Shown: piece by piece, positions 24,411 through 42,796 of the stretch | Layout of the letters: every line of letters starts with the position of its first letter | Numbering within the stretch: the first letter of the stretch is position 1 | Sequence record: NZ_CP142098.1 | DNA length: 64,000 bases | Reading direction: 5' to 3' (one strand) | Source of the DNA: a plasmid | Notes under the pieces: generated by a model | What the model was told of the DNA's origin: nothing | Databases searched by the model: none | The model's input: the letters and a program-made list of their open reading frames with translations, nothing else | Translations under genes and position numbers: made by a program

Positions 24411-24500
24411 CGCTACCGCCGGCTGCTTTACCCGTTCGCACTCCCTCCACGTTGTTCCAGTCGCTTGCGCATGCGGCTTCAGCAGCCGTACCTGCCTCAT
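24411..24500. promoter_or_regulatory. Leading-region GC-rich repeat copy H (ssDNA-promoter/ssi-like module), upstream of the methyltransferase-like gene
   Basis: Shares the core cgctaccgcc…cccgttcgcactc…cgcttgcgcatgcggc with the other copies. Confidence 0.45.
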
Positions 24501-24571
24501 CCCTTGCCGGCGTGGCTAGTTCTTGCGCTATGGCGAGAAATGGGTTCTCGCCTCCATAGGGAGACAACACC

Positions 24572-25342
24572 GTGAACAACCAACTTTCCTTCGATGCTTT
24601 GCTGACAACTGAAGCGCCAGTGAAAAATGAATCAAGAACCACGCCCAGTGAAGCCAGGAAACTATTTATCAAAACGTTCTCGTGCGTTGCTACTTACCAT
24701 CGGCGCCTCGATGTTTTCCGTGACTTTATTCGGCTGGCTTCTAATGAACTTGACCTGGCACGCGTGCGATCGGAGGAGGGGAGGGAAGAGGCAATGCAGA
24801 TTTGTAAACGGTATGAGGCTGCCGATTTAGAAAAGATGCACCATTTGTTCTGTTTCCTGGTTGATGCGTTGGAAGCTGGAATGCATGACCTGTTGGGGGG
24901 GGTATTCATGGAACTGGAATTCGGCGCCGCATCAATGGGGCAGTTTTTCACGCCGCTTGAACTTTCGCGCTTGATGGCAAGGCTGACAATCGGAGAACAC
25001 GTTAACGAGCTGAAACAGCGACCGTTTATTACGTTGGATGAGCCGGCCAGCGGATCGGGAGGGATGGTGATCGCTGTGGCCGAGCACTTGTTAACGCAAG
25101 GCTATAACCCGCAGCAGCAGTTGTATATTCGTTGTACTGATATCGATCCGATGGCCGCCGATATGTGTTTTGTACAGCTCGCATTATTGGGGTTGCCTGC
25201 AACAGTTTATACCGGCAATACCTTATCCATGAGTATGTCGAAGGTTCGCCATACGCCGATTTATTACATTAATGGATGGGGTGAGAAACTTCGCTTGCTT
25301 GATATCGCAACTCGATTCCAAAAAGTGCTGCAAGCGGTTTAG
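24572..25342 (+). CDS. SAM-dependent methyltransferase-like protein (gamma-class N6-adenine DNA methyltransferase motifs X and I; motif IV not recognisable)
   Basis: GQFFTP (motif X-like) and LDEPASGSGGMVIA (motif I). No clear NPPY. GTG start with a GGAGA ribosome-binding site. Confidence 0.5.
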   Translation: MNNQLSFDALLTTEAPVKNESRTTPSEARKLFIKTFSCVATYHRRLDVFRDFIRLASNELDLARVRSEEGREEAMQICKRYEAADLEKMHHLFCFLVDALEAGMHDLLGGVFMELEFGAASMGQFFTPLELSRLMARLTIGEHVNELKQRPFITLDEPASGSGGMVIAVAEHLLTQGYNPQQQLYIRCTDIDPMAADMCFVQLALLGLPATVYTGNTLSMSMSKVRHTPIYYINGWGEKLRLLDIATRFQKVLQAV

Positions 25343-25380
25343 TTTTAGGGAAGGGGAGACAATTCTCCCCTTTTTGCTAT

Positions 25381-25795
25381 TGGTTTCCGGCGACGTTGAG
25401 TCGCCAAAAACCAACGATCGGTCGCTTGCAGCCGGCGATGCCGGCGCCGCTTTCACTGCCCGGCCGCTTGTGCGGCCGTTCGCTAAGGCAGCCAGGCTAA
25501 AGGCCTGGCACTTTCTGGTGCATCCCCTCAGGCCCGGCATCCGCGCAGAGAGACTGTCCCCGTGACAGACGCTGAGCCGGGGCGCCGCCGGCACAAGGGT
25601 AAGCGTTGCCGGCGTCCTCACCCGTTCGCACTCCCTTCCTCCCTGCGGTCGTTTGGTCGCTTGCGCTGCGGCCTGCGGCGCCGCCCTTGTACCGTCAGCT
25701 GATACCCCGTCTCGGTCTTGTTGTCACGGCGCCAGGCTCCCCGCGCCGGCGAAAGCCAAAAGGGGAATACACCAGAAAGAAGTCGTAACGGGAGG
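25381..25795. promoter_or_regulatory. Leading-region modular repeat copy A (modules M2+M3)
   Basis: About 415 bp, more than 95% identical to 34850-35250 and 40430-40812. Confidence 0.55.
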
Positions 25796-25799
25796 GTTT

Positions 25800-26303
25800 A
25801 TGACGAAATCACTGAAAGAGATGTTGGCCGAGCTGGCTGTTAGCAAACAGGGCAATCCGCTGCAGGACGAGCGCACGGAGGACAATTTGGCCCGCATTTC
25901 ATTGGCAGCGGAGGCTGTGTTGGCTTTCTTGGCTAGATGTCCGGGTGATGAACGCGACGTCACGTCGATTTTCGCTGATTTAATGGCCGATTTATTCCAC
26001 TTGGGGCACCGCCTGCACATGGCTGGATTTTATGCCGATTTTCCATTATGGCGGCAGTCTGTATTACTCACCGCCATGGGCCATTTTGACGCTGAAATTA
26101 CCGAGTTTTCAGAGGAGGTGATTTGTCATCCTCATGCGGCCTTCGCACTGCTGTCGTTCCTAAACAGCCGTAAGCAACCTGATCAACACATCAGCGTATC
26201 GGCACGCTTACTTGCGACTGAACTGGTCATGATGAATACCCGTCTTGAATCGTTACCGAAAGCTAATGCACTGGCCGCCGTCATCGCCGAAATCTACAAG
26301 TAA
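25800..26303 (+). CDS. Hypothetical leading-region protein (168 aa)
   Basis: ATG with a GGAGGG ribosome-binding site, directly downstream of repeat copy A. Confidence 0.5.
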   Translation: MTKSLKEMLAELAVSKQGNPLQDERTEDNLARISLAAEAVLAFLARCPGDERDVTSIFADLMADLFHLGHRLHMAGFYADFPLWRQSVLLTAMGHFDAEITEFSEEVICHPHAAFALLSFLNSRKQPDQHISVSARLLATELVMMNTRLESLPKANALAAVIAEIYK

Positions 26304-26349
26304 TCATTAGGGCGGTGCGCCTGCCGCCCTATCTAATTATGGTATCAAT

Positions 26350-26691: not shown

Positions 26692-26743
26692 AAGCGACGC
26701 CCGGTTCGCATTGGTGATAGTTCCGCGGTGTGGCAAAGCCCCC

Positions 26744-27924: not shown

Positions 27925-27926
27925 CC

Positions 27927-28410: not shown

Positions 28411-28801
28411 ATGGATGTTTTTGAGTTGAGATTATGGCGCGCCGGCCAATACTTTTCGCTGTCTGAGGCGCGTTCGCTGCGCCTGGGGAGCCATTGGCGG
28501 CAAGAGGATGCCGCCAATGCTCTGGGGGTGTCAGAACGGACTTATCGGACCTATGAAAATAGTGGCGTGTCCCGAACAGCTCGCCTGGGGATCCAGACAC
28601 TGATGCTGGTCCGCTTGTTACCCGATTTGCGTCGAATGGAGCAACCGCAAATCGTTTTGCAACTGCAGGCGCTAACGCGCCACGATCAGACTACACCTCA
28701 GTCCAGGGGCGTGGTATCACTTATTATGCCTTCAGCAGGTATGAAGGCATGGCGAGGGGCGCTGGGTTGGACGCAAAAGCAGACCGCGGATTATCTTGGG
28801 G
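28411..28801 (+). pseudogene. 5' part of a tandem-HTH (XRE-like) regulator gene interrupted by the IS66-family element
   Basis: The reading frame runs into the IS inverted repeat (…TQKQTADYLGG|KRHI*). The 3' part resumes at 32705 (…LGVSLRTVKNYEQG…), recreating a canonical helix-turn-helix across the insertion. Confidence 0.75.
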
Positions 28802-28887
28802 GTAAGCGTCACATTTGAACCGCCTGTCAGAGAGGCCCGCTTTCCCTGAAAATAATGTCCATCATCTGTTTAATGGACATTATTTTA

Positions 28888-29519
28888 TGAGTGAACGGGC
28901 ATGGTTGTTTGAGGTCTTTCGTCTTCACTATCAGGAACAGCTGTCTCAGAACCGCATCGCCAAACAGCTGGGGCTACCCAGGTCAACAGTCAACAGCTGT
29001 TTCCAGCGCGCTATCAAGGCCGGTGTTCGTTGGCCCGTCAACGAACTGACGCTGGAACGCACCCTTTATCCCGGTAAAAAACGGTCACGCTCCTCAGCAT
29101 CACCGCCGCTACAAACACCGATAACGGCCGTGCCATCAAAACCCAAAAGAAGGGGACGCAGACCCAACTTCCCGCTGGCGTTCAAGCTGGCGCTGGTTGA
29201 ACAATCAATGCAGCCTGGCGTCAGTACCGCCAGGCTGGCGCGCGAGCATGGCATCAACGACAACCTGTTGTTCAACTGGCGCAACCTTTACAAGCAGGGG
29301 CGCCTCGGCACGCCTCTTCCCGCTGAGCACTGCCTGTTGCCGGTGGAACTGGAAGATATGCCATCATCACCGCCTATAACTGAAGCAGATAAAACACCAC
29401 CCTCCGATGCCGCGGAATGTGAACTGGTGCTGCCTGCCGGCACGTTACGGCTCCGGGGTGCACTCAGTCCTGCCTTGCTGAGCATGTTGATCCACGAGTT
29501 GAAAGGAACGCGCCGATGA
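28888..29519 (+). CDS. tnpA: IS66-family accessory protein TnpA (orf1; HTH)
   Basis: C-terminal half (…FKLALVEQSMQPGVSTARLAREHGINDNLLFNWRNLYKQG) is the IS66 orf1 helix-turn-helix. The true start is uncertain; the ORF-track TTG at 28815 lies inside the inverted repeat. Confidence 0.7.
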
Positions 29520-29863: not shown

Positions 29864-29882
29864 CCTGTTGTAAGGTAGGGGT

Positions 29883-31448: not shown

Positions 31449-31663
31449 TATTGAGCGCCTGTACGACCTGTATGTAGCTCTTATAAAAATAACATCACTA
31501 ATTAAATTATAAAGTTGGTGTTATTGCATAAGTTTAGATATATCACGTCCTGTGAGCCCTCTCACAAACGTAACCTTTATACAAGGAGTACGACGCCGTC
31601 GTAATCTTACTTCGTCAATTACTGGCTCATTTAAACGGGCTCAACTTACGAAGAGAGGTTCCA

Positions 31664-32602: not shown

Positions 32603-32704
32603 TCAGGTAGTGACGTAAATTTATAAAAAAGGTTCCGGAGGGGGATTTGTCTCCTCTCCGGAGCATTATAGTAAGCATCAATACGGTCTGCATGTGACGC
32701 TTAC

Positions 32705-32879: not shown

Positions 32880-33034
32880 CACACTGTTTATGGTGGCCAA
32901 TTCTGGCCACTCAAAGGATCCCCGGCCTTGCCGGGGCCCCATCTCTGACTTCAACTTCTGCGATTTGCATTTTTTCCGCCCTGCGGGCGGGGATCTAAAT
33001 GGTATGTCGTCGCCTGGGCTTACGCCGTAGCCCG

Positions 33035-33215
33035 AACGTAGCCGTGCCGCTGCGCCTGCAAGGGTACGCGTTGCCCATATCCTCACCCGTTCGCACTCAC
33101 TCTCTCCCTGCTGTCGTTCGCTCGCTTGCGCATGCGGCTTGCGGTATGGCCCCTGCATTCTCCGCTTTCCGCACGTCTGTGTTTTGGCTACGGCGCAAGC
33201 CGATATCCGACAACC
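33035..33215. promoter_or_regulatory. Leading-region repeat copy B (variant of module M3)
   Basis: …agggtacgcgttgccc…cctcacccgttcgcactc…cgcttgcgcatgcggc… as in the other copies. Confidence 0.5.
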
Positions 33216-33231
33216 TGACTGGAGAAGAATT

Positions 33232-33636
33232 ATGCCGAATTGGTGTGCAAACCGCCTTATCGTGACTGGGACGCCTGATCAACTTACCGCTTTGGCCGAA
33301 TTTTCACATTGCGAAGGAAGTGACAGTTTTTTCAGCGATGTTGATGTTGCATTAGTGGAGTTCGACGGTGAAATACAGCTGGATTTTCATACCCGGTGGG
33401 CTCCCCCTGAAGGTTCCGAGATCCGCAGTCTGAGTAAGCGTTTCTCCTGCCATATTTGCCACACGTTTTGCGAGGAGGGGGAGGGTTTTTGCGGGTATCA
33501 CGTCTATTCAAGTGGCGAATATATAGATAGTGCCAGTGACGATATTGAATGGTCAGACGATCTGGACGAATACGGATATGCCGAGGTTGTAGGCCCGGAG
33601 TATGTCTTGGGGAATGTACCAGATTACGGTGGTTAA
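33232..33636 (+). CDS. Hypothetical acidic leading-region protein (134 aa, Cys/His-rich centre)
   Basis: ATG with a GGAG ribosome-binding site directly downstream of repeat copy B. Confidence 0.45.
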   Translation: MPNWCANRLIVTGTPDQLTALAEFSHCEGSDSFFSDVDVALVEFDGEIQLDFHTRWAPPEGSEIRSLSKRFSCHICHTFCEEGEGFCGYHVYSSGEYIDSASDDIEWSDDLDEYGYAEVVGPEYVLGNVPDYGG

Positions 33637-33927: not shown

Positions 33928-34054
33928 TAGCTTGCAGCCGGTCTATGACCGGCGCCGCATCCACTGGCCGCCATGGGCGGCCGTTAAGGAAAACCGTTAC
34001 AACGGCTTCATGGCGCACTTTTCCTGGCATCTTGTGCCGCGGCGTTCACTTATG

Positions 34055-34215
34055 CTGTGACGGACGCTGCCCCGTTCCGGTACGACAACAAGGGAAAGCT
34101 GGCGCCCGCTGTCCTCACCCGTTCGCACTCCCTGCGGTCGTTTGCGCTGCGGCTTCCGACATCGCCCTTGCTGTCGTCCCCAATGGAACGTGGCGGTCTG
34201 GTGTCACAGCAACGT
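34055..34215. promoter_or_regulatory. Leading-region repeat copy C (variant)
   Basis: …gtgacggacgctgccccgttccgg…cctcacccgttcgcactccctgcggtcgtttgcgctgcggc…. Confidence 0.5.
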
Positions 34216-34276
34216 GCTCCCCGCTCTGTGCAAGAGCGAGAAAAAGTGCACCATAAGTGAAGCCGGAGAATGAAGT

Positions 34277-34780
34277 ATGAATACTGCAGTAAACGCCACC
34301 CAGCCAGCAACAGAAGTGAGCAGAATTGAAATTACCGATCCGCGTCGCCGTTTAGCTTTTGTACCTCAATTATTCGCCACGCCGGTAGGTGAACGCTTGG
34401 CCATCAACTTTTTAAGCAGACACAGCAATTACGATGGGGGAATGTGGAATTTTTATGAGGTTCCAGTAGGGCTCACCGGCCGAGTCGGGCCATGGGCTGA
34501 CATGATTATTAACCACCCAACCGGTTACATCGCGCCAGCGGATGGGGTTTATCGTTTAACTATTCCGGGTAATTACTTCGATGCTGATGTTTCGGCGGAT
34601 GCTGCAGGGATCATCGCAACGCTTTTTGTTTTGAATCACCTTTCCTGGAAAGCTTCAGAACTGGGGAAAGATTATGCGCTGACCTGTCAACGATTAATCG
34701 AGCGCCAAGATGCGCTTAAAGATTACATCAGTATCATTCAACACCCTGAAAAGTCGCTGATATTCCAAGCCATCGATTAA
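34277..34780 (+). CDS. ArdB/KlcA-family antirestriction-like protein
   Basis: Conserved blocks RRLAFVPQLF…DGGMWNFYEV…AAGIIATLFVLNHLSW…IFQAID match my recollection of the KlcA/ArdB (PF03230) pattern. Confidence 0.5.
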   Translation: MNTAVNATQPATEVSRIEITDPRRRLAFVPQLFATPVGERLAINFLSRHSNYDGGMWNFYEVPVGLTGRVGPWADMIINHPTGYIAPADGVYRLTIPGNYFDADVSADAAGIIATLFVLNHLSWKASELGKDYALTCQRLIERQDALKDYISIIQHPEKSLIFQAID

Positions 34781-34849: not shown

Positions 34850-35250
34850 TTTTAGCGACGTTGAGTCGCTAAAAACCAACGATCGGTCGCTTGCAGCCGG
34901 CTTCGCCGGCGCCGCTTTCACTGCCCGCCCGCTAATGCGGCCGTTCGCTAAGGCAGCCAGGCTAAAGGCCTGGCACTTTCTGGTGTATCCCCTCATGCCC
35001 GGCATCCGCGCAGAGAGACTGTCCCCGTGACAGACGCTGAGCCGGGGCGCCGCCGGCACAAGGGTACGCGTTGCCGGCGTCCTCACCCGTTCGCACTCCC
35101 TTCCTCCCTGCGGTCGTCCGTTCGTTTGCGCTGCGGCCTGCGGCGCCGCCCTTGTACCGTCAGCTGGTACCCCGTCTCGGTCTTGTTGTCACGGCGCCAG
35201 GCTCCCCGCGCCGGTGAAAGCCAAAAGGGGAATACACCAGAAAGAAGCCG
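34850..35250. promoter_or_regulatory. Leading-region modular repeat copy D (M2+M3)
   Basis: Near-identical to copies A and F. Confidence 0.55.
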
Positions 35251-35298
35251 GATTGGCCTACCGCTGGATGAAATTCATTACTGATGGAGGAGTTAACC

Positions 35299-37347
35299 AT
35301 GCCAAAGACCATAACTAAACCAAAAGCTAACAAAGCAGAGCCGAAGAAAAACGCGGCGGCGAAGTTTGTCGAAGCCGCGCTGGCCAAGGCCGAGCGTAAA
35401 AATCTCATGCTCAAAGAGCTGACTTTTTCGGATCAGAACGCGCGTATTACCCCTCGCTCTGAGGAAGATATTGAGGAGATGGCAACCAGCATCGAGGCCA
35501 CGGGTCTGTTGCAGAATCTCGTCGTTCACCGCATGGCGGATGGCCGATACGGTGTGGACGCCGGTGAGACCCGCCGTCTTGGGATGGATTTGTTGATGGT
35601 GCAAGGGCGTTCAGCTGCTGGCGTCCCGGTAACGCCGGAGTTTATCGTTCCTGTTTTAGTCGTCGATCAACAGGACGCCTATGCGATTTCTGTCGCGGAG
35701 AACGTGCGCCGCACCAACCTGCAACCTGCCGATCAGCTCGAAAATATCCGTTTGTTGGCGATGAAAGGAACGCCCCCTGAGCAAATCGGCGCCATCCTCG
35801 GCTTCAGTACCCTGCATGTTAAAAAATGCCTTAAGTTGACAACCGTAGCCCCTGCGCTGCTGGAGCTGCTGAAAAAGAATCAAATCAATTTTGACCAGCT
35901 GGCGGCGTTGGGCGCGACGGATGATCACCAGCGCCAGCTTCAGGCATGGGAAAAGAGCAGCTATTACGCGAACCTCCGCAAACCGAAGGCGTTACGCGAA
36001 GCTGTGTTGAACGATGAAGTGTCGGCGGCAGACAGCCATATCGTTGAATTTGTCGGACTGGAAGCCTATCAGGCTGCAGGGGGGGAAACTCGAGAAGATC
36101 TGTTTGCTGAAAGCGTCATCCTGACAAATCCGCTGATGCTGGAGACGTTGGCTATGGCCAAGCTGCAGGCTGCGGCAGATGAAGTGGCGAAAAATGAAGG
36201 GTGGGCATGGGCGGTTGGCCGCAGTCGAGAGGTGCGGAGTTATAACGGAGACGAAAAGACCTTCGAGATCCTTTTTGTTCAGGCGAAATTGAGCGACGAA
36301 TTGCAGACAGAGATGGATCAGCTGCTCACCGAGCAAGAACTGCTGGATGACATGTTTGATACTGCTGGACTCGATGCAGACGAAGAATGGGAACATGCGC
36401 CGCGCGTTGAGCAAATTGAGGCGCGCATCAACGAGATCAACGACGCCGCCGAGATCAATAAGTGGTCGCCGGAAGTTCGTGCGACGGCGGGCGTAGTCGC
36501 TTACCTGAAAGATGGCCAGATCCAAATCCAACGCGGCTTGATGAAAGTGGAAGACATCAAGCAACAAGAAAAAGCCAACCGCGAAGAAATCAAGAAGAAC
36601 ACCCCACCGTCAGAAAAAGGGCTTTCCCAAGTATTGGTGGCAAGTTTGTCCGCCGAACGTACTTTGGCAGTATCTGCGGCGCTGGCGCAGAACACCAACG
36701 TCGCGATTGCACTCCATACGTTCACGCTGGCACGGCGGGTGTTCGACGCGGGATATTTCTATGTGTTGCACACCTCTGTAGAAAGCATGCGCAGCGGCTG
36801 CTTATCCCAGTCAGAAGAGGCTGGCAGCGTGAATGGTATCGCTAACCTGAAACTTAACGAGATGCATGAGAGCTGGTTGAACCAATTTCCTGAAAATTGG
36901 AGCGAAAGCTTTGAGTGGCTGCTGGCGTGGCCACAGGGTGATGTTCTCCGGTTGTTGGCATACTGCGTTTCCCACGGCCTCGATGGCCGAGACAGTTATC
37001 TCAAGGATAAGCGGGTTGGCACCAAGCTGGATTCGGTAGAAAAAGCCCTCGATTTCCAGATCGGGGAATGGTGGAAGCCGACGAGTGACAACTATTTTTC
37101 GCGGATTGGCAAAGACCAGATCGTTGATGCTCTCAATAGCGCCGGTGAAACCGGGAAGGCCAAAGATGCCGAGGGCATGAAACGTAAAGATGCCGCTGAG
37201 TTCGCCGCGGCGGTGCTGAGCGAAACCGGTTGGTTGCCGAGCTGCATGGCACCGCAGCCGCAGGCCGATACGGAAAACCGGGCTAATGCTACGGCCAGTT
37301 CTACAAACGCCAATGATACTGACGCTGACGACAGCGCTGCCGCCTAA
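35299..37347 (+). CDS. ParB/Srx N-terminal nuclease-domain protein (large leading-region ParB-like protein)
   Basis: N-terminal …LTFSDQNARITPRSEEDIEEMATSIEATGLLQNLVVH… is a ParB-N/Srx fold motif. 683 aa. ATG with a GGAGG ribosome-binding site. Confidence 0.75.
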   Translation: MPKTITKPKANKAEPKKNAAAKFVEAALAKAERKNLMLKELTFSDQNARITPRSEEDIEEMATSIEATGLLQNLVVHRMADGRYGVDAGETRRLGMDLLMVQGRSAAGVPVTPEFIVPVLVVDQQDAYAISVAENVRRTNLQPADQLENIRLLAMKGTPPEQIGAILGFSTLHVKKCLKLTTVAPALLELLKKNQINFDQLAALGATDDHQRQLQAWEKSSYYANLRKPKALREAVLNDEVSAADSHIVEFVGLEAYQAAGGETREDLFAESVILTNPLMLETLAMAKLQAAADEVAKNEGWAWAVGRSREVRSYNGDEKTFEILFVQAKLSDELQTEMDQLLTEQELLDDMFDTAGLDADEEWEHAPRVEQIEARINEINDAAEINKWSPEVRATAGVVAYLKDGQIQIQRGLMKVEDIKQQEKANREEIKKNTPPSEKGLSQVLVASLSAERTLAVSAALAQNTNVAIALHTFTLARRVFDAGYFYVLHTSVESMRSGCLSQSEEAGSVNGIANLKLNEMHESWLNQFPENWSESFEWLLAWPQGDVLRLLAYCVSHGLDGRDSYLKDKRVGTKLDSVEKALDFQIGEWWKPTSDNYFSRIGKDQIVDALNSAGETGKAKDAEGMKRKDAAEFAAAVLSETGWLPSCMAPQPQADTENRANATASSTNANDTDADDSAAA

Positions 37348-37389
37348 CTGACAAAGGAGCTGCCGCCCTCGGGCGGCAGAACAAACATT

Positions 37390-37854
37390 ATGAAAAACCA
37401 AAAATTAAGCCTTGCGCAGTTAGCCGTAATGAGTGCCTTTGAGCTGGAGCAGTATCGTGACCGGGGCAGGGAGGCGCGTCGTCAGTTGAACAACGTTGTT
37501 CTCGGCCAACTGGCGCTGCCGGATGGGTGGAACGCCATTGCGGAAGAGGCCAGCGAGTTTTGCGGGCAGGTGCCTGTTGTTTGTCGTATCAGTCCAACAG
37601 GGGATGACAATCTGGCCATTTACCTGTGCAGTGCTGGGAGTGAAGTGCCGGAATGGTCAGCCTTTCTACCATTCCAGGAATCAACAAATCAGGCTGACCA
37701 GGGAAATCGTGTCGCCTGGTTACATACTGCGGAGAATTTTGACCCGGAGACGGTCAACAAGGTGTTGGAGACTGTCGGTGATTACTACCGGCACGGGTTT
37801 AACCAGTCAGCGCAGCTGGCCGCCGCTCTACGGATGGGAGGGCTGTGCGTATGA
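37390..37854 (+). CDS. psiB: Plasmid SOS-inhibition protein PsiB
   Basis: Collinear with F PsiB (…LALPDGW…SEFCGQVPVVCRISP…LCSAGSEV…). Confidence 0.7.
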   Translation: MKNQKLSLAQLAVMSAFELEQYRDRGREARRQLNNVVLGQLALPDGWNAIAEEASEFCGQVPVVCRISPTGDDNLAIYLCSAGSEVPEWSAFLPFQESTNQADQGNRVAWLHTAENFDPETVNKVLETVGDYYRHGFNQSAQLAAALRMGGLCV

Positions 37855-38615
37855 TCCCGAACAGCCGCGCACTGGTGCCGATAAACGAATATCAGCATGC
37901 CGCCGTCCACGCCGTGGCATTGGTCGAGCGCAAGAAGGAGCAGGGCAAGCGGCTCGCTGAATTCCCGTATGCCAAAGCCTTTTTTAAAGTGTTGAACAAT
38001 GGGCGGGTGCAGGTTTTAGCAAACGACATTCGCCTGATTTCATCCAATTATTTTCCTAATGAACGGGGCGGTGCAAACATCGCGCATTATGTAGCGGCAT
38101 TGGACAGACTGATCGAAAGCGGTGGACAGTACAGCCCGCTGCCGCTTGCTGGGGATGTCGCTGGCAAGCTGTTCCCGGCTTACGATGTCCTTTGCCGTGA
38201 GCGCCGCGAACGGCAGTGGGATATGCAGTATGAACGACAGGAACGGCGGCGTTCTCGTGAAGAACGGCAAAAGCGCCGACGCTACCAAAACCAGTTAGCG
38301 CAGGCAGAAGTCGAGCTGGCGTTTTCAACGCCGAGCACCCTTGGGACATGGTATGCACGTTGGAGCAAGCAGGACATATTTGAAGACGATCTGGTTGAAA
38401 GCGTTCTGACATGGGTAGAAAGATTCCCCAGTATGGCAGGCAGGGGGTTGCAGCATTACAAGAGCGACGCATTGTGGAGCGTGATGGATCGATTGACGCG
38501 AGCAGATGCTGATATTTCTGAGACAGAACGACTATTTAATGCACTGCTCATTCCAAATAAGTTAAGGCTTGCTGCAGGGGAATCTGCAATAGATACTGAG
38601 TTAAATTTGTCCTAA
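37845..38615 (+). CDS. psiA: PsiA
   Basis: …SAFPYAKAFF…LPLAGDVAGKLFP…RERRERQ… is collinear with F PsiA. Overlaps the psiB stop. Confidence 0.7.
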   Translation: MRMIPNSRALVPINEYQHAAVHAVALVERKKEQGKRLAEFPYAKAFFKVLNNGRVQVLANDIRLISSNYFPNERGGANIAHYVAALDRLIESGGQYSPLPLAGDVAGKLFPAYDVLCRERRERQWDMQYERQERRRSREERQKRRRYQNQLAQAEVELAFSTPSTLGTWYARWSKQDIFEDDLVESVLTWVERFPSMAGRGLQHYKSDALWSVMDRLTRADADISETERLFNALLIPNKLRLAAGESAIDTELNLS

Positions 38616-38631
38616 GAAACAATAAACTGAG

Positions 38632-38655
38632 AAGGCGCCAAGTGGCGCCTTTTTG
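38632..38655 (+). terminator. Rho-independent terminator after psiA
   Basis: aaggcgcc-aagt-ggcgcctt stem-loop followed by a run of T. Confidence 0.7.
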
Positions 38656-38687
38656 TTATTGGTATGTCAGGCAGACCACGGATGCTG

Positions 38688-38930
38688 GAGCTTCCTCCGG
38701 TGGCAGGCCGCTCGCGACCCGCCATCAGCCCTACTCGACTAGCAGTCCGCACGCGGTCAGCAAGTCTCGCCGAACCCGCGTTGCGGTTTCGGGCCAGTAG
38801 GCTAAGGTCTGAAAGCCAAAATCAAGATCGACAACCTACGCTTGCAGCCGGCTATGCCGGCGCCGCTCCCACTGATCGCCCCTAGGGCGGCGATCGCTAA
38901 GGGCGACCCGTCGTTCCGCCGTGCCGAGGG
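38688..38930. promoter_or_regulatory. Leading-region repeat copy E (module M1 plus a divergent M2)
   Basis: gagcttcctccggtg…gggccagt(a/c)ggcta(a/t)ggtctgaaagccaa…cgcttgcagccggc… shared with 40298-40470. Confidence 0.5.
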
Positions 38931-39133
38931 TGTTCATCCTCATCAATTCCCTGTGGCCATCTCTCTGAGAGTTTTTGCGGAGGGCTATTCGTAGCGCCAT
39001 TCCGTTCAAAAAACAAGGTTCTGGCAAGCCACGCCGCAAGCGGCGCCCTTGTTTTTCTCCGGGCCTGTCGCAACTCGGCCCTACGCCGCAAAGAACTCGC
39101 TGAGATATGGAATCACAAGAGGAATAGACCAGA

Positions 39134-39574
39134 ATGAACCCCGATAACGTCAACGTCAAAACCGCCGCTGCAGAATCTGCCGAGATATGTGAAAAGGCAG
39201 GAATGTGCGAACCAGAGGCCCCAGAGCCGTGGGAAAAGCCCGGCGTGCAATATCCTGCCGCCGTTCGAGCGTTGGAAATGGAGTTTTGCTATTTAGACGA
39301 TCTGAATGACCTGTATGCGCAAAGCAGCACGTCACCCGACGAGCTGGAGCAGGCGCTCTATGTGATTTTCGGCCGGATGACTGAGCTTGTCCAAAGCTGT
39401 GGTGCTGATTATAAGCAGCCGGACAAACCGCGAGTTGCCTACGAAATGATCCAATATTGGGTCAGAGCGCAACGGGTCGCACAGCGTGACTACGGGGAGA
39501 TCGGTCAGCGCGCCTGGGAGCATGCACGTTACAGACTGGCGCAAGAGATGGCAGTGGAGTATTCGTACAACTGA
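39134..39574 (+). CDS. Hypothetical leading-region protein (146 aa)
   Basis: ORF downstream of repeat copy E. Confidence 0.45.
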   Translation: MNPDNVNVKTAAAESAEICEKAGMCEPEAPEPWEKPGVQYPAAVRALEMEFCYLDDLNDLYAQSSTSPDELEQALYVIFGRMTELVQSCGADYKQPDKPRVAYEMIQYWVRAQRVAQRDYGEIGQRAWEHARYRLAQEMAVEYSYN

Positions 39575-39596
39575 CAAGCTGGACGATTTTTATCAA

Positions 39597-39618
39597 AAAG
39601 ACCTGTTAACAGGTCTTT
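39597..39618. promoter_or_regulatory. Palindromic operator AAAGACCTGTTAACAGGTCTTT upstream of the phd/relE-like pair
   Basis: Perfect 22-bp palindrome, with a second imperfect copy at 39632-39651. Confidence 0.55.
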
Positions 39619-39668
39619 TTGGTGGTATAATAAGACCACTTAACAGGTCTTATTAAGTCGAGGATACC

Positions 39669-39920
39669 ATGCCAAATATCATTCTGAGTGACACAAGTGC
39701 GAGCATCAGCGAGCTGAAGAAAAACCCAATGGAAACCGTTGGCGCCGGCGCCGGGTTTCCGGTGGCCATACTGAACCGCAATAAGCCAGAATTTTATTGC
39801 GTGCCGGCGGCGCTCTACGAGCAAATGCTCGATGCCCTCGATGATCAGGAGCTGGTGAAATTGGTCAATGAGCGTCGTAGCGAAGCGCTGGTTGATATCG
39901 ATCTGGATCAGTTCGCATGA
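39669..39920 (+). CDS. Phd/YefM-family antitoxin
   Basis: 83-aa protein (MPNIILSDTSASISELKKNPMETV…) with the Phd/YefM N-terminus. Overlaps the toxin start by 4 nt. Confidence 0.8.
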   Translation: MPNIILSDTSASISELKKNPMETVGAGAGFPVAILNRNKPEFYCVPAALYEQMLDALDDQELVKLVNERRSEALVDIDLDQFA

Positions 39921-40204
39921 CGTATACGGTCAAATTTCGTGAGTCGGCGCTGAAAGAGTGGGGCAAGCTGGACAAATCGCTGCAGCAGCAGTTCGCCAAA
40001 AAGCTGAAAAAATGCTGCGAGAACCCGCATATTCCGTCAGCAAAACTGCGGGGGATGCCGGGATGTTACAAAATCAAGCTGCGCGCCTCGGGGTTTCGTC
40101 TGGTTTACGAAGTGATCGACGATTGCCTGATTATCGCGGTGGTTGCCGTCGGCAAACGTGAGCGCGGCGATGTGTACCAGCTGGCCAGTGAACGTCTTAA
40201 ATAA
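39917..40204 (+). CDS. RelE/ParE-family toxin
   Basis: 95 aa. …WGKLDKSLQQQFAKKLKK…GCYKIKLRASGFRLVYEVIDDCLIIAVVAVGKRER is the RelE/StbE fold signature. Confidence 0.8.
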   Translation: MTYTVKFRESALKEWGKLDKSLQQQFAKKLKKCCENPHIPSAKLRGMPGCYKIKLRASGFRLVYEVIDDCLIIAVVAVGKRERGDVYQLASERLK

Positions 40205-40297
40205 AAAACCATGCAGGCAATTGGCCTGCATTAATCTCACTGCGGATAATAACGAGAATTTACTGTCGTACAGGCAGATGCATTAAAATTAAGCTAT

Positions 40298-40812
40298 GAG
40301 CTTCCTCCGGTGTCTGGCCGCACGCGTCCAGCCATCAGCCCAACTCGACTAGCCGCCCGCCTGCGGTCGTCAAGTCTCGCCGAACCCGCGTTGCGGTTTC
40401 GGGCCAGTCGGCTATGGTCTGAAAGCCAACTGCAACATCAAAGACTAGCGCTTGCAGCCGGCGATGCCGGCGCCGCTTTGACTGCCCGCCCGCTAATGCG
40501 GCCGTTCGCTAAGGCAGCCAGGCTAAAGGCCTGGCACTTTCTGGTGTATCCCCTCATGCCCGGCATCCGCGCAGAGAGACTGTCCCCGTGACAGACGCTG
40601 AGCCGGGGCGCCGCCGGCACAAGGGTACGCGTTGCCGGCGTCCTCACCCGTTCGCACTCCCTTCCTCCCTGCGGTCGTTTGGTCGCTTGCGCTGCGGCCT
40701 GCGGCGCCGCCCTTGTACCGTCAGCTGATACCCCGTCTCGGTCTTGTTGTCACGGCGCCAGGCTCCCCGCGCCGGCGAAAGCCAAAAGGGGAATACACCA
40801 GAAAGAAGCCGT
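40298..40812. promoter_or_regulatory. Leading-region modular repeat copy F (M1+M2+M3, the longest copy)
   Basis: Contains all three modules. M2+M3 is near-identical to copies A and D. Confidence 0.55.
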
Positions 40813-40841
40813 TGCGGCTTCTGAGTTACTGACTAACGGGA

Positions 40842-41306
40842 GTGGTTATGTCAACGATCGAGCAACAGCAGCAACAACAAATGGTTTTTTATATTCCGGG
40901 AACAACGTGGCCACTGGATGTCGCAATCTGGCTGGAAGATCGCTTTGTCACGTCGTCAGGCAAAACGCTTGAACAGCTACAGCAGCGTAATCCTGCATGT
41001 GTTCTGGTGTCGTATGAAGAAGCGAAGCGCGGGATGTATGAGGCCGCAAGTCTGCCTGTCCGTCGTATCAGCAAAGATGAGTACATGGACAAGTTGGAGA
41101 TGTTGCCGCCGCTCGATTGGAAGTATTTTGATGGCCAAGAATCTTTCAAGATGATGGAAATGTATTGCGGGAATATTACCGATATTTTCGCCCAGCTTGG
41201 CAATAGCTATTTTGCGATGCGCGATCATGTTTCGTTACCACATGCTGAGATCATGCAGCGTGTGCGTACATTTATAGATGCCGAGTCTGCGGCCGTAGCA
41301 GCCTGA
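40842..41306 (+). CDS. Hypothetical leading-region protein (154 aa, poly-Gln near the N-terminus)
   Basis: ORF downstream of repeat copy F. Confidence 0.45.
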   Translation: MVMSTIEQQQQQQMVFYIPGTTWPLDVAIWLEDRFVTSSGKTLEQLQQRNPACVLVSYEEAKRGMYEAASLPVRRISKDEYMDKLEMLPPLDWKYFDGQESFKMMEMYCGNITDIFAQLGNSYFAMRDHVSLPHAEIMQRVRTFIDAESAAVAA

Positions 41307-41363
41307 ATAGTTTCCCTCGGTGTTAGCAACACCGGGGGATCCTCGATAAGAAGGAAATCGACA

Positions 41364-41513
41364 ATGATTATTGATGACTATATCGCGGCAATCGGTCGTA
41401 AAATTTGGGAACAATGGCAAGAAAATAAACCGGTAATTATTCCAGCTCTTAAAGGTTTTGAGTGGGCACAGTTGCTCCGCTACTTAGAACTAAAACGGGG
41501 CTATGCGTGTTGA
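41364..41513 (+). CDS. Small protein (49 aa), missed by the ORF track
   Basis: Strong AAGGAA ribosome-binding site 8 nt upstream of the ATG. Followed by an intrinsic terminator. Confidence 0.35.
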   Translation: MIIDDYIAAIGRKIWEQWQENKPVIIPALKGFEWAQLLRYLELKRGYAC

Positions 41514-41530
41514 CTCATGATATGAACTGA

Positions 41531-41557
41531 GCCACCCAATTGGGTGGCTTTTTATTT
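41531..41557 (+). terminator. Rho-independent terminator
   Basis: gccaccca-att-tgggtggc perfect hairpin followed by ttttta. Confidence 0.7.
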
Positions 41558-41940
41558 CGGCTGTCGCCTGTCTGCGGCGTCGAGCCGCTGACAGGCGAAC
41601 AAAGCGCTTGCAGCGGGCTGAGCCCGCGCCGCTTTTGCAGTTTCCATCAAGATGAAAACTGTAAGGCTATCAGGCTCCGCCTGATGTTACGTTTTGGTGT
41701 TTCCATTTCCTCTGCGGTGCTTAGCGGCATGTCTTTTGCTGTGACAGACCTTGTGCCGGGGCACCTACATCGCAAGGGTTCGCTACCGCCGTCCATCCTC
41801 GCCCGTTCGCACTCACTCAACGCAGTTTCGTTCGCTTGCGCATGCGGCCTGCGGTGTCGCCCATGCGTTGCAGGTTTATACCCCGTCACGGTCATTGCGT
41901 CACAGCACAAGACGCGCCGCTCCGGCAAAACCGGAATAAA
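41545..41940. promoter_or_regulatory. Leading-region repeat copy G (variant M2/M3)
   Basis: …cgctaccgccgtccatcctcgcccgttcgcactcac…cgcttgcgcatgcggcctgcgg…. Confidence 0.5.
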
Positions 41941-41968
41941 TGGCAACACCGAAAACAGACTGAAGGGG

Positions 41969-42796
41969 ATGAATATGAAGCGACTGTATAGCGGATTTCG
42001 CCAGGCAAATGTGATCCGCCAAACTCGACCATTGACAAATGATGAGTTATTCCGTCACGTACCAAGTGTTTTCTCTGAAGAAAAACATGCATCACGTAGT
42101 GAGCGTTATACCTACATACCAACGATTAATTTGTTGGATAGACTCCGCGAAGAAGGTTTCCATCCATTTTATGCTTGCCAAACAAAAGTTCGCGATGATG
42201 ATAAACGTGGTCACACGCGGCACATGCTAAGGCTTCGTAGAAATGGTTTCGGTCAAAATGATGAGGTTCCTGAGATTATTTTACTTAATAGTCACGATGG
42301 GAGTAGCAGCTATCAAATGATTCCGGGCATATTTAGATTTGTTTGTAACAACGGTTTAGTGTGCGGCGACACGTTCGGGGAAGTCCGTGTTCCACACAAA
42401 GGGGATGTTGTTGGAAGAGTGATTGATGGTGCTTATGAAGTGCTAAGTTTTTTTGAAAAAGTAACGGATTCTCGTGATGAAATGAAGGCGGTTATTCTTG
42501 ATAAGAACGAGCAACATGTGTTTGCTGATGCCGCATTAGGGTACAAATATTTTGGAGAGCATCAACCAATAACAGCAGAACAGGTGCTGAGTCCACGACG
42601 CTGGCAGGATAAGAAAGATGATTTGTGGACAACGTTTCAAAGGGTGCAAGAAAACATAATAAAAGGTGAAATACCTGGAATCAGCGCCAACGGAAAGCGA
42701 AACAGAACTCGTGCAGTCAATAGCATAACTGGCGATGTAAAGCTCAATAATGCGTTGTGGAAAATGGCAGAAACCATGAAAAACCTGAAGTCGTAA
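41969..42796 (+). CDS. DUF932-family protein (leading-region protein)
   Basis: 276 aa from MNMKRLYSGFRQ…. The longer TTG-initiated ORF in the track runs through repeat copy G and is unlikely. Confidence 0.55.
   Translation: MNMKRLYSGFRQANVIRQTRPLTNDELFRHVPSVFSEEKHASRSERYTYIPTINLLDRLREEGFHPFYACQTKVRDDDKRGHTRHMLRLRRNGFGQNDEVPEIILLNSHDGSSSYQMIPGIFRFVCNNGLVCGDTFGEVRVPHKGDVVGRVIDGAYEVLSFFEKVTDSRDEMKAVILDKNEQHVFADAALGYKYFGEHQPITAEQVLSPRRWQDKKDDLWTTFQRVQENIIKGEIPGISANGKRNRTRAVNSITGDVKLNNALWKMAETMKNLKS

What the first reader, a model, noticed from the sequence alone, without database searches (positions are those of the whole stretch)
24411..42796. Leading-region anti-defence island driven by eight copies of a modular GC-rich repeat (putative ssDNA promoter/ssi elements)
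A composite repeat built from three modules recurs eight times: 24411-24500, 25381-25795, 33035-33215, 34055-34215, 34850-35250, 38688-38930, 40298-40812 and 41545-41940.
- M1: gagcttcctccggtg…ggtctgaaagccaa.
- M2: cgcttgcagccggcgatgccggcgccgct…gtccccgtgacagacgctgagccggggcgccgccggcacaagggt.
- M3: …cctcacccgttcgcactcc…cgcttgcgctgcggc…cccttgtaccgtcagc…aaagccaaaagggg.

Each copy sits immediately upstream of a plus-strand gene:
- methyltransferase-like;
- 168-aa unknown;
- acidic 134-aa unknown;
- ArdB/KlcA-like;
- ParB-nuclease-like;
- 146-aa unknown;
- 154-aa unknown;
- DUF932.

The repeats contain long-range inverted complements (ggcacaagggt…cccttgtacc) able to form extended hairpins in single-stranded DNA, like Frpo-type promoters.

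All these genes are on the plus strand and oriT (about 43.7 kb) lies to their right. The minus strand would therefore be the transferred strand, entering the recipient from about 43.5 kb down to about 24.4 kb. That makes it a correct template for early single-strand transcription.

Several repeat-driven genes are unannotated candidates for new anti-defence functions. Recognisable ssb and ardA genes are absent.
Basis: partly seen in the sequence, partly recalled or inferred. Interest (0 to 1): 0.7.

Follow-up and report, generated by a model that had tools for sequence, protein, structure and literature searches.

The report
Single-strand DNA promoter hairpins, plasmid leading region
The repeats are real and are best read as eight hairpin promoters that work only while the incoming plasmid strand is still single-stranded, relatives of elements recently proven in F and IncI1 plasmids, so this is a good new example of a known mechanism rather than a new one.

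Summary
The window is a Serratia MPF-I/MOBP conjugative plasmid of the pADAP-like backbone. Between the parA side (24.3 kb) and oriT (nick at 43685/43684, minus strand) lie eight repeat units. All are on one strand, and each sits directly upstream of a plus-strand gene or operon.

Seven units (A-E, G, H) share a homologous core of about 230-265 nt. This core folds on the minus (transferred) strand into a long imperfect hairpin. Copy F shares only the distal modules (M1/M2). Its gene-proximal hairpin is a distant relative of canonical Frpo/ssi (class 1).

Evidence for the structure:
- The hairpin shows strong covariation, with 27 of 46 pairs carrying compensatory changes.
- It is more stable on the transferred strand in 19 of 19 copies.
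- Its 3' arm carries an invariant, paired TTG (-35), then 15-16 nt, then nAnnnT (-10) in an internal loop.
- The duplex reading lacks these signals.

It is a new member of a known kind. The unknown downstream genes stay unknown.

The parts
24350..24579 (-). Hairpin A (class 2/3-type single-strand promoter). -35 TTGCCG at 24405-24400, -10 TATGTT at 24383-24378, predicted +1 near 24532. Its lower stem overlaps the RBS and GTG start of the methylase gene.
   Evidence: nhmmer E 3.5e-36; fold; promoter elements
24572..25342 (+). N-6 DNA methylase-like gene, 256 aa, driven by A
   Evidence: Pfam N6_Mtase 9e-10
25424..25450 (+). M2 core motif GCTTGCAGC-[covarying hairpin]-GCGCCGC at the distal edge of unit B. 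The same motif occurs at 33930-33958, 34889-34915, 38840-38866, 40450-40476 and 41606-41632.
   Evidence: regex scan and context; family D7
25516..25781 (-). Hairpin B. -35 TTGTGC at 25596-25591, -10 CAGCGT at 25574-25569, predicted +1 near 25727.
25800..26303 (+). 167-aa protein of unknown function, followed by DUF3085, parM and stbB
   Evidence: no Pfam or NCBIfam hit; only 9 homologues; AF2 pLDDT 49
32972..33239 (-). Hairpin C. -35 TTGCAG at 33061-33056, -10 TACGTT at 33040-33035, predicted +1 near 33190. This copy is closest to Samuel et al.'s candidate Frpo*1.
33232..33636 (+). 134-aa protein with a DUF1281 C-terminal domain, a shortened relative of the first gene of the pESBL class 3 operon
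   Evidence: Pfam DUF1281_C 1.8e-13; tblastn with pESBL DUF1281 7e-18
34024..34257 (-). Hairpin D. -35 TTGTTG at 34091-34086, -10 CAGCGT at 34069-34064, predicted +1 near 34207.
34277..34780 (+). ArdB/KlcA-type antirestriction gene, 167 aa
   Evidence: Pfam Antirestrict 2e-18
34981..35246 (-). Hairpin E. -35 at 35061-35056, -10 at 35039-35034, predicted +1 near 35192.
35284..38615 (+). Operon of a ParB_N-domain protein (687 aa), psiB (37390-37854) and psiA (37845-38615)
   Evidence: Pfam ParB_N, PsiB 2e-41, PsiA 7e-29
38681..38840 (+). Module M1, copy 1. The second copy is at 40291-40450. Structured on the minus strand; function unknown.
   Evidence: family D5; nhmmer; fold
38904..39132 (-). 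Hairpin F, a distant class 1 (Frpo/ssi) relative with an A/T-rich apex (AAAAACAAGG...CCTTGTTTTTT)
   Evidence: class 1 profile E 6e-5; blastn to Frpo*5 and Frpo*7; fold
39134..40204 (+). 146-aa unknown gene, then a Phd/YefM-RelE/ParE toxin-antitoxin pair (39669-40204)
40542..40807 (-). Hairpin G. -35 at 40622-40617, -10 at 40600-40595, predicted +1 near 40753.
40842..41306 (+). 154-aa protein of unknown function
   Evidence: 6 homologues; AF2 pLDDT 82; no fold match
41695..41957 (-). Hairpin H. -35 TTGCGA at 41775-41770, -10 CAAGGT at 41753-41748, predicted +1 near 41903.
   Evidence: fold z -6.6 on minus versus -3.7 on plus
41975..43145 (+). DUF932 gene (273 aa) and DUF5983 gene (42819-43145)
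   Evidence: Pfam
43684..43730 (-). oriT core: an inverted repeat followed by CATATCCTG|TCCC. The predicted nick lies between 43685 and 43684 on the minus strand.
   Evidence: MOBP nick consensus (PMC3772185)
43217..46071 (.). Relaxosome genes: mobC (43217-43531, minus), nikA/mobA-like (43805-44146, plus) and the MOBP relaxase (44143-46071, plus)
   Evidence: ORFs; annotation of relatives

Best explanation
The eight units are single-stranded-DNA promoters of the plasmid's leading region.

**Proposed mechanism.**
1. During conjugation the minus strand is nicked at 43685/43684 and enters the recipient 5' end first. The region from 43.6 kb down to 24.3 kb therefore arrives first, as single-stranded DNA.
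2. Each repeat core folds on that strand into a hairpin of about 230-265 nt.
3. The gene-distal (3') arm acts as the non-template strand. It offers a base-paired -35 (invariant TTG), a spacer of 15-16 nt, and a -10-like nAnnnT whose key A sits unpaired in a conserved internal loop, that is, a pre-opened bubble.
4. Host sigma-70 RNA polymerase would start about 7 nt further on, in the GTCAC/GTGAC helix. It would use the gene-proximal (5') arm as template and run out of the hairpin base into the downstream gene, leaving 5' leaders of about 40-75 nt.
5. When the complementary strand is made the hairpin disappears. The duplex reading lacks the -10 and often the TTG, so expression switches off.

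**Which units belong to which class.** Seven units (A-E, G, H) form a subfamily of the class 2/class 3 (ssp2 / M.EcoGIX-promoter) superfamily. Unit F is a diverged class 1 (Frpo) element.

**Shown here:** the repeats, their orientation, the nick-strand polarity by homology, the conserved structure, its strand specificity, and homology to validated elements.

**Inferred:** actual transcription, the start sites, and silencing in the duplex form.
For: **Context and polarity**
- Leading-region architecture is collinear with pESBL and F: parA(-), methylase, klcA, ParB, psiB/psiA, DUF932, mobC(-), nikA, relaxase.
- The nick motif is on the minus strand.

**Structure**
- Minus-strand MFE is lower than plus-strand MFE in all 8 upstream regions and in 19 of 19 aligned copies.
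- Composition-corrected mean z is -3.4 on the minus strand versus -1.8 on the plus strand, and lower on the transferred strand in 17 of 19 copies. The tool check on copy H gives -6.6 versus -3.7.
- Covariation in the 19-sequence alignment: 27 of 46 pairs have compensatory changes. 92.3% of cells are paired versus 79.4% in shuffles (0 of 500 shuffles reach the observed value), and slid controls give 30-42%.
- Covariation in the 44-sequence alignment, which includes pESBL and F class 3: 24 of 30 pairs have compensatory changes.

**Promoter signals**
- TTGnnn, 15-16 nt, nAnnnT is present on the transferred-strand 3' arm in 19 of 19 copies. TTG is paired and the -10 A is unpaired in 17 of 19 MFE structures.
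- On the plus strand the equivalent reading has TTG in 9 of 19 and nAnnnT in 1 of 19.
- More distant members carry TAnnGT (TACAGT, TAAGGT, TAACGT) at the same place.
- No consensus duplex sigma-70 promoter lies inside any repeat. The region has 15 hits in total against 15.9 expected.

**Homology**
- The window-family profile hits pESBL only at 3405-3278 (E 5e-10; upstream of the DUF1281/M.EcoGIX operon, class 3), upstream of klcA and upstream of ardA (class 2). It hits F only at 8789-8662 (E 1e-8) and at ssp2.
- Those elements have RNA-seq induction and 5' RACE start sites (PMC12672017). ssp2 is also a mapped replication roadblock (bioRxiv 10.64898/2026.01.09.698686).
- Copy C matches Samuel et al.'s candidate Frpo*1 at 72% over 191 nt, E 3e-19.
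Against: - No expression data exist for this plasmid. Start sites are extrapolated.
- The -10 of copies B, D, E, G and H is weak: CAGCGT or CAAGGT, 2 of 6 to consensus.
- The spacer of 15-16 nt is short.
- Reciprocal searches are weak. The class 3 profile reaches the window only at E 0.04 (copy A) and the class 2 profile only at E 0.09 or worse. Homology therefore rests on the window-family profile and shared architecture.
- Inverted repeats fold on both strands. The strand preference comes only from G-T wobbles and loop asymmetry.
- The long, invariant apical domain (GCCGCA.GCGCAA ... GTGCGAACGGGTGAGGA) is not explained by a promoter role alone.
Confidence: 0.8

Rival explanations
1. The repeats are conventional double-stranded regulatory cassettes, like the CUP repeats of IncN plasmids. 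Each would supply an ordinary promoter plus operator sites for a plasmid repressor, for example the two-HTH protein encoded at 28411. The invariant apical sequences would be the operators.
For: - The units are repeated upstream of leading-region genes, as CUP is (from memory: Delver and Belogurov 1997).
- A conserved HTH regulator gene sits in the island in all relatives.
- The apical about 35 nt are invariant without needing covariation.
Against: - No consensus sigma-70 promoter lies inside any repeat on the plus strand.
- The plus-strand reading lacks nAnnnT in 18 of 19 copies and has CTG instead of TTG in about half.
- Compensatory changes and G-T wobbles point to selection on a folded minus strand.
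- The profile gives no hit in R46 (IncN) at E below 1.
- The regulator gene is truncated by an IS66 insertion in this plasmid while the repeats remain intact.
Confidence: 0.07
2. The hairpins mainly serve DNA processing on the incoming strand rather than transcription. They would act as priming sites (ssi) or as roadblocks that time complementary-strand synthesis.
For: - Frpo also makes primer RNA (Masai and Arai 1997, as cited in PMC12672017).
- ssp2 of F stalls complementary-strand synthesis at the stem end (10.64898/2026.01.09.698686).
- The invariant apical junction and the M2 two-hairpin module have no obvious promoter role.
Against: - Every copy sits immediately upstream of a gene in the right orientation.
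- The -35/-10 pattern is conserved in 19 of 19 copies.
- Homologous elements have mapped transcription start sites (PMC12672017).
- These roles are not exclusive of a promoter role, so this is more an addition than a rival.
Confidence: 0.08
3. The structure acts in RNA, as 5' leader or attenuator elements, or terminators, of transcripts made from duplex DNA.
For: - Terminator-like stem-loops with T-runs lie on the plus strand at unit boundaries: 25348-25375, 38628-38655, 41529-41550 and 25491-25509.
- The hairpin lies between genes.
Against: - The plus (RNA-sense) strand folds less well in 19 of 19 copies, and its z-scores are near background.
- Conserved wobble positions are G-T on the minus strand, which become C-A mismatches in the RNA sense.
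- There is no Rfam match.
Confidence: 0.03
4. The repeats are selfish or neutral palindromic elements (REP/MITE-like) that have spread within the region. Their only effect would be to promote recombination between cassettes.
For: - Near-identical copies exist: B, E and G are 95-98% identical.
- Gene content between repeats differs among related plasmids, which suggests cassette shuffling at the repeats.
Against: - The orientation is strict in every plasmid examined.
- The position relative to start codons is fixed.
- Structure is conserved at 55% mean identity across genera.
- No copies lie outside the leading region in the 64-kb window.
Confidence: 0.02

Closest known systems
Class 3 single-strand promoter of pESBL and F (promoter of the DUF1281/M.EcoGIX operon; Wen et al., NAR 2025, PMC12672017)
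   Same: - Same place in a collinear leading region, next to the parA/umuDC end and upstream of a methylase-containing block.
- Same hairpin plan on the transferred strand: GCCGTG...ACCGGGCG...GCAGG on the 5' arm, an apical GCCGCAGCGC...CGGGTGAGGA, and CTTG...GCCCGG-TAnnGT...CACGGC on the 3' arm.
- Best outside hit of the window-family profile: E 5e-10 in pESBL and 1e-8 in F.
   Different: - About 55% identity or less.
- The reciprocal class 3 profile barely reaches the window (E 0.04).
- Most window copies have CAnnGT instead of TAACGT at -10, a longer lower stem that includes the RBS region, and seven paralogous copies instead of one.
Class 2 single-strand promoter / ssp2 (upstream of klcA/ardB and ardA in pESBL and F; = Frpo'4 of Samuel et al. 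2024)
   Same: - Same overall hairpin and the same CCCTTGCAT...AGCCCGGCTAAGAT...CACGGC 3' arm.
- Drives klcA, as copy D does here.
- Hit by the window-family profile at E 1e-6 to 1e-7.
   Different: - Class 2 has a much longer apical domain.
- The class 2 profile does not reach the window copies (E 0.09 or worse). It does find true class 2 copies in pADAP, the Y. ruckeri plasmid and the Erwinia plasmid.
- The roadblock function is known only for ssp2.
Frpo / ssi1-3 (class 1; F Frpo1/Frpo2, ColIb-P9 ssi)
   Same: - Same concept and same orientation.
- Copy F (38904-39132) is a distant homologue (E 6e-5) with an A/T-rich apex.
- The distal motif GCTTGCAGC-hairpin-GCGCCGC flanks Frpo1 and Frpo2 in F and the class 1 elements in pESBL, just as it flanks six units here.
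   Different: The seven core copies show no similarity to class 1, by blastn or with the class 1 profile. Their apex is a GC-rich branched junction, not an A/T-rich tip.
Frpo*1 and Frpo*3 'low-certainty candidates' from an insect-gut metagenome element (Samuel et al., Nature 2024, Supplementary Table 2)
   Same: Direct sequence relatives: 72% over 191 nt to copy C, E 3e-19. Same orientation upstream of leading-region ORFs.
   Different: Those were proposed from motif inspection only and flagged as doubtful. Here the structure gains covariation and strand-asymmetry support and a link to validated classes.
CUP repeats of IncN plasmids (pKM101/R46)
   Same: Repeated elements of several hundred bp upstream of leading-region antirestriction genes (recalled from the literature, not tested functionally).
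   Different: No sequence similarity in R46 (nhmmer, E below 1). CUP is described as a duplex promoter/operator unit.

Membership tests
Single-strand DNA promoters of plasmid leading regions (general kind) | Located in the leading region, on the side of nic that enters first, with the transferred strand as template of the downstream gene | tested here: met
   The nick motif TATCCTG|T is on the minus strand at 43691-43684 and aligns with pESBL. All eight units and their genes lie at lower coordinates, with genes on the plus strand.
Single-strand DNA promoters of plasmid leading regions (general kind) | Long imperfect hairpin formed by the transferred strand and maintained by selection | tested here: met
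   MFE -55 to -169 kcal/mol. z of -3.4 versus -1.8 on the other strand. 27 of 46 and 24 of 30 pairs have compensatory changes.
Single-strand DNA promoters of plasmid leading regions (general kind) | -35 and -10 boxes reconstituted in the stem | tested here: met
   TTGnnn, 15-16 nt, nAnnnT in 19 of 19 copies on the 3' arm. The -35 is paired and the -10 A is unpaired. The -10 is weak (2-4 of 6). The pattern is absent from the duplex reading.
Single-strand DNA promoters of plasmid leading regions (general kind) | Early, transient transcription in transconjugants from the single-stranded form; inactive as duplex | not testable with these tools
   Needs RNA-seq or 5' RACE after mating, or in vitro transcription on single-stranded templates.
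Class 3 (M.EcoGIX promoter type) | Sequence homology to the pESBL/F class 3 hairpin | tested here: inconclusive
   Window-family profile to class 3: E 5e-10 and 1e-8. The sequences align over the whole core, with pairs kept. The reciprocal class 3 profile to the window reaches only E 0.04. Best described as a sister subfamily.
Class 2 (ssp2 type) | Sequence homology to ssp2, including its extended apical domain | tested here: not met
   The class 2 profile does not reach the window (E 0.09 or worse), although it finds class 2 copies in related plasmids. Only the window-family profile links them (E about 1e-6). The extended apex is absent.
Class 1 (Frpo/ssi) | Sequence homology to F Frpo or ColIb-P9 ssi | tested here: not met
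   For the seven core copies there are no blastn or profile hits. For copy F alone the feature is met weakly (E 6e-5).
ssi (single-strand initiation / priming signal) | Supports primer synthesis for complementary-strand replication on single-stranded templates | not testable with these tools
   No sequence criterion is available. Needs M13 ori-defective rescue or 3'-end mapping.
IncN CUP repeats | Sequence similarity to the CUP units of R46/pKM101 | tested here: not met
   No nhmmer hit in R46 positions 1-50000 at E below 1.

The most novel reading that the evidence does not exclude
Each unit may be more than a promoter. It could be a composite 'establishment module' whose two unexplained conserved parts are recognition sites for a second machinery acting on the incoming single strand, such as a primase or primosome, UvrD, SSB, or a termination device for single-strand-templated transcription.

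The two unexplained parts are:
- the invariant GC-rich apical junction, GCCGCA(N)GCGCAA ... GTGCGAACGGGTGAGGA;
- the distal two-hairpin M2 element, GCTTGCAGC-hp-GCGCCGC-TTYCACTG-hp-CTAAGG. Its core motif also flanks Frpo1 and Frpo2 in F and the class 1 elements in pESBL.

If so, classes 1, 2 and 3 would share a common, so far undescribed accessory signal. Classes 2 and 3 would be one superfamily bridged by this Serratia/Yersinia subfamily.
Probability: 0.2. Interest if true: 0.6.

Novelty: new member of a known kind. Interest (0 to 1): 0.35.

Why it matters
**Background.** Single-strand promoters are how conjugative plasmids express anti-restriction, anti-SOS and other protective genes before the recipient's defences act. 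Only a handful have been validated: F Frpo1 and Frpo2, ssp2, and six in pESBL.

**What this window adds.**
- It is a dense natural array of eight promoters in 19 kb, seven of them paralogues of one subfamily.
- Together with homologues from other genera, it gives the first covariation-level support for the class 2/3 hairpin architecture.
- It shows that the -35 TTG and the -10 A/T are conserved only on the folded transferred strand.
- It links classes 2 and 3, which were described as unrelated.

**Practical uses.**
- A profile for annotating such promoters in plasmids of Serratia, Yersinia, Pantoea, Enterobacter, Aeromonas, Xanthomonas and PromA-type broad-host-range plasmids.
- Defined early-expressed ORFs as candidates for establishment or anti-defence functions.
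- An explanation for gene callers extending ORFs through these GC-rich hairpins.

Tried and rejected
- **IncN CUP relationship.** No hit in R46.
- **pCTX-M3 (IncM).** The first 50 kb, which include its leading region, gave no core hit and only a marginal M1 hit (E 0.0055).
- **Rfam.** No family matched at E of 1 or below beyond chance miRNA and histone hits.
- **Duplex promoter scan.** Nothing lay inside the repeats.
- **G-T versus A-C counting on structures predicted with wobble pairs allowed.** This was not clean: the plus-strand prediction also collects many G-T pairs. I relied instead on structures predicted without wobble pairs (8-9 G-T versus 2 A-C), on z-scores and on column asymmetry.
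- **Function of the unknown proteins.**
  - Pfam, NCBIfam, PHROGs and PDB sequence searches were empty or matched only families of unknown function.
  - Homologue searches found 9 and 6 clusters, all unnamed.
  - The AF2 model of the 167-aa protein is unusable (pLDDT 49.5).
- **Supplement of PMC12672017.** It is not held, so I could not compare my predicted start sites with their mapped ones.
- **17-mer scan of genome contigs.** About half the hits were chance matches in unrelated phyla. These were filtered out with the profile.

Full report
**1. What is there**

The repeats are real. A self-comparison finds several direct-repeat families between 24.4 and 42.0 kb.

A profile built from the copies finds exactly seven core elements in the 64-kb window (A 24350-24579, B 25516-25781, C 32972-33239, D 34024-34257, E 34981-35246, G 40542-40807, H 41695-41957). 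They score E 1e-36 to 1e-63 and none lies elsewhere.

The eighth place (F, 38688-38930) shares only the distal modules M1 and M2. Between these and its gene lies a different hairpin, 38904-39132.

**2. Context and polarity**

The window is a Serratia plasmid. It is 99% identical in parts to S. marcescens p14BL03_1 and 95% identical to S. nevei pSNEVa. It shares a backbone with pADAP and Yersinia ruckeri plasmids, which have an MPF-I transfer system and a MOBP relaxase.

Gene order runs as follows:
- parG/parA (minus strand);
- methylase, 167-aa unknown, DUF3085, parM/stbB;
- HTH regulator, here cut by an IS66 element carrying a pectate lyase gene;
- DUF1281_C protein, KlcA/ArdB;
- ParB-like protein, PsiB, PsiA;
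- 146-aa unknown, Phd/RelE toxin-antitoxin pair;
- 154-aa unknown, DUF932, DUF5983;
- mobC (minus strand), nikA-like gene, relaxase.

This order is collinear with the leading regions of IncI1 pESBL and of F.

On the minus strand at 43730-43681 an inverted repeat is followed by CATATCCTGTCCC. This aligns with the pESBL sequence ...ACACATCCTGTCCCG and fits the MOBP nick consensus (C/T)ATCCTG(C/T) with its 5'-proximal inverted repeat (PMC3772185).

The relaxase stays on the 5' end, so the minus strand is transferred starting at 43684 and running to lower coordinates. It is the template strand of every plus-strand gene in the island. This step rests on homology, not on an experiment with this plasmid.

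**3. Structure**

All eight upstream regions fold better on the minus strand than on the plus strand.

I aligned 19 copies from the window, pADAP, a Y. ruckeri plasmid and a Candidatus Erwinia plasmid.
- RNAalifold predicts a long hairpin with a branched apex. It has 46 pairs, 27 of them with compensatory changes.
- 92.3% of cells are paired versus 79.4% in column shuffles (0 of 500 shuffles reach the observed value). With partners slid by 1-3 columns the figure is 30-42%.
- A wider alignment of 44 sequences at 55% mean identity, including the pESBL and F class 3 elements, keeps 24 of 30 pairs through compensatory change.

The fold is strand-specific.
- The transferred strand is more stable in 19 of 19 copies.
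- Its composition-corrected mean z-score is -3.4 versus -1.8, and lower in 17 of 19 copies.
- The tool check on copy H gives z -6.6 versus -3.7.

This argues against an RNA-level or purely duplex (cruciform) function.

**4. Promoter anatomy**

On the gene-distal (3') arm of the transferred strand every one of the 19 copies has TTGnnn, then 15-16 nt, then nAnnnT.
- The CTTG is invariant and base-paired with CA(A/G)G on the other arm. G-T wobble is tolerated there, so the plus strand reads TTG in only 9 of 19 copies.
- The -10-like hexamer lies in a conserved internal loop, and its A is unpaired in 17 of 19 MFE structures.
- The equivalent plus-strand reading has nAnnnT in only 1 of 19 copies.
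- More distant family members carry clearer -10 boxes at the same column: TACAGT, TAAGGT, TAACGT.

With the 3' arm as non-template strand, transcription would start in the GTCAC/GTGAC helix and leave the hairpin base toward the gene. That predicts start sites near 24532, 25727, 33190, 34207, 35192, 40753 and 41903. This geometry is my inference.

A consensus scan finds no duplex sigma-70 promoter inside any repeat.

**5. Relation to known elements**

*Published candidates.* Samuel et al. (Nature 2024, PMC11541004) listed known Frpo/ssi sequences and new candidates. The window copies do not match the canonical ones. Copy C matches their low-certainty candidate Frpo*1 at 72% over 191 nt (E 3e-19), and copy F's hairpin matches Frpo*5 and Frpo*7.

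*Validated elements.* Wen et al. (NAR 2025, PMC12672017) showed six early-induced operons in pESBL by RNA-seq and 5' RACE in transconjugants. They defined class 1 (ssi/Frpo), class 2 (upstream of klcA and ardA) and class 3 (upstream of the M.EcoGIX operon), all conserved in F. The class 2 element of F, ssp2, is also a mapped roadblock for complementary-strand synthesis (see also PMC13478746).

*Profile searches.* The profile of the window family hits the following sites and nothing else:
- in pESBL, 3405-3278 (E 5e-10, class 3), upstream of klcA and upstream of ardA (class 2, E about 1e-6);
- in F, 8789-8662 (E 1e-8) and ssp2.

Folding those regions shows the same plan and shared strings: GCCGCAGCGC, CGGGTGAGGA, CTTGCAT, GCCCGG-TAAnnT, CACGGC.

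*Reciprocal searches.* These are weak:
- the class 3 profile reaches the window at E 0.04;
- the class 2 profile reaches it at E 0.09 or worse;
- class 2 and class 3 reach each other only at E 0.02-0.1.

The window copies are therefore best seen as a sister subfamily that bridges classes 2 and 3, which were described as unrelated.

*Copy F.* A class 1 profile hits 39132-38904 (E 6e-5), so unit F is a diverged Frpo-type element.

*Negative results.* R46 (IncN, CUP repeats) and the pCTX-M3 leading region give no core hit. Rfam has no match.

**6. Modules**

*M2.* Its core is a 27-29-nt motif, GCTTGCAGC-[4-5-bp stem with a covarying sequence]-GCGCCGC. In the window-type copies it is followed by TTYCACTG, a second covarying hairpin and CTAAGG.
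- It occurs at the distal edge of six units here, always on the plus strand.
- The same core motif sits directly beside Frpo1 and Frpo2 in F and beside the class 1 elements in pESBL.

*M1.* This module (two copies, 38681-38840 and 40291-40450) is also structured on the minus strand.

*Terminators.* Plus-strand terminator-like hairpins close the upstream operons at 25348, 38628 and 41529.

The roles of M1, M2 and the invariant apical junction are unexplained. A priming, roadblock or termination role is possible but untested.

**7. Genes**

- ssb and ardA are absent from the whole window.
- The 134-aa protein is a shortened DUF1281 relative of the first gene of the pESBL class 3 operon.
- The 167-, 146- and 154-aa proteins have no family, few homologues and no informative structure match. 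Calling them anti-defence candidates is reasonable by position only.

**8. Distribution**

- The core repeat occurs in 158 PLSDB plasmids, with 3-6 copies each, mostly in Serratia, Yersinia and Enterobacter.
- A scan for the apical 17-mer followed by profile filtering confirms copies in 56 of 118 loci. These come from Pantoea, Rahnella, Kluyvera, Leclercia, Buttiauxella, Aeromonas, Xanthomonas, Methylomonas and Pseudomonas.
- Copies also lie in the ardC region of PromA-type broad-host-range plasmids.
- Some copies in Y. ruckeri and Erwinia plasmids lack the apical domain but keep both arms.

**9. Verdict**

It is a new member of a known kind, already foreshadowed by published low-certainty candidates. 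Interest is moderate. The value lies in the covariation support, the link between classes 2 and 3, and the unexplained conserved accessory modules.

Noticed in passing
window 28800-32700: A 3.9-kb insertion interrupts the two-HTH regulator gene that starts at 28411. It consists of an IS66-family element (tnpA/tnpB/DDE transposase, 28815-31448) plus a pectate lyase gene (31664-32602). The product is 135 aa here versus 185 aa in pSNEVa. p14BL03_1 and pSNEVa lack the insertion.
   Followed up: partly
window 24097-24328: Two blocks of the 8-bp tandem repeat GTAATCCT (7 + 4 or more units) lie between parA/parG (minus strand) and hairpin A. They are probably the partition site or operator of the ParA/ParG system.
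   Followed up: no
window 25424-25450, 33930-33958, 34889-34915, 38840-38866, 40450-40476, 41606-41632; L008 14183-14211 and 19572-19600; L007 8795-8823 and 15139-15167: The conserved motif GCTTGCAGC-[covarying 4-5-bp hairpin]-GCGCCGC lies at the distal edge of single-strand promoters of different classes. This includes Frpo1 and Frpo2 of F and class 1 of pESBL. One further copy sits about 330 bp downstream of the end of repA in pESBL (L006 37886). Its function is unknown.
   Followed up: partly
window 38681-38840 and 40291-40450: Module M1 is present in two copies at 85% identity. It forms its own long structure on the minus strand. There is a weak hit in pCTX-M3 (L010 24025-24115, E 0.0055), and a related string (CCCGAAACCGC...GCGGGTTCGGCG) occurs distal to a class 1 element in pESBL.
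   Followed up: partly
L004 20030-20226 and 33463-33660; L005 22131-22330: Natural deletion variants of the hairpin lack the whole conserved apical domain (model positions about 103-160) but keep both promoter arms. They would serve as a ready-made test of whether the apex is needed.
   Followed up: no
L003 24561-24782; L004 25634-25856; L005 32810-33036 and 36427-36668: Related plasmids (pADAP, Y. ruckeri pYR6, a Candidatus Erwinia plasmid) carry true class 2 (ssp2-like) copies (E 1e-13 to 1e-18) alongside the window-type subfamily. The window itself has none.
   Followed up: partly
L013 343-474 and PromA plasmids such as LC623899 3192-5688: A partial homologue of the hairpin (model positions 9-161, E 1.8e-12) lies in the ardC-kleA region of about 41-kb PromA-type broad-host-range plasmids. 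It is found in Hydrogenophaga, Thiobacillus and Burkholderiaceae assemblies.
   Followed up: partly
window 41540-42796; L002 26368-27492; protein P0009: ORF finders and deposited annotations extend genes upstream through the GC-rich hairpins.
- DUF932 is called as 418 or 374 aa instead of 273 aa.
- A 250-aa version of the 167-aa protein begins inside hairpin B.
These are a source of mis-annotated N-termini.
   Followed up: partly
window 39595-39654: Two 26-bp palindromes (AAAAAGACCTGTTAACAGGTCTTTTT and AATAAGACCACTTAACAGGTCTTATT) lie just upstream of the Phd/YefM-RelE pair. They are likely antitoxin operators or a bidirectional terminator.
   Followed up: no
window 40842-41306: The 154-aa protein gives a confident AF2 model (pLDDT 82, alpha/beta) with no significant match in the PDB. 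It carries an invariant SFK.ME..GN.T.IF motif and is restricted to a few Serratia and Salmonella plasmids.
   Followed up: partly
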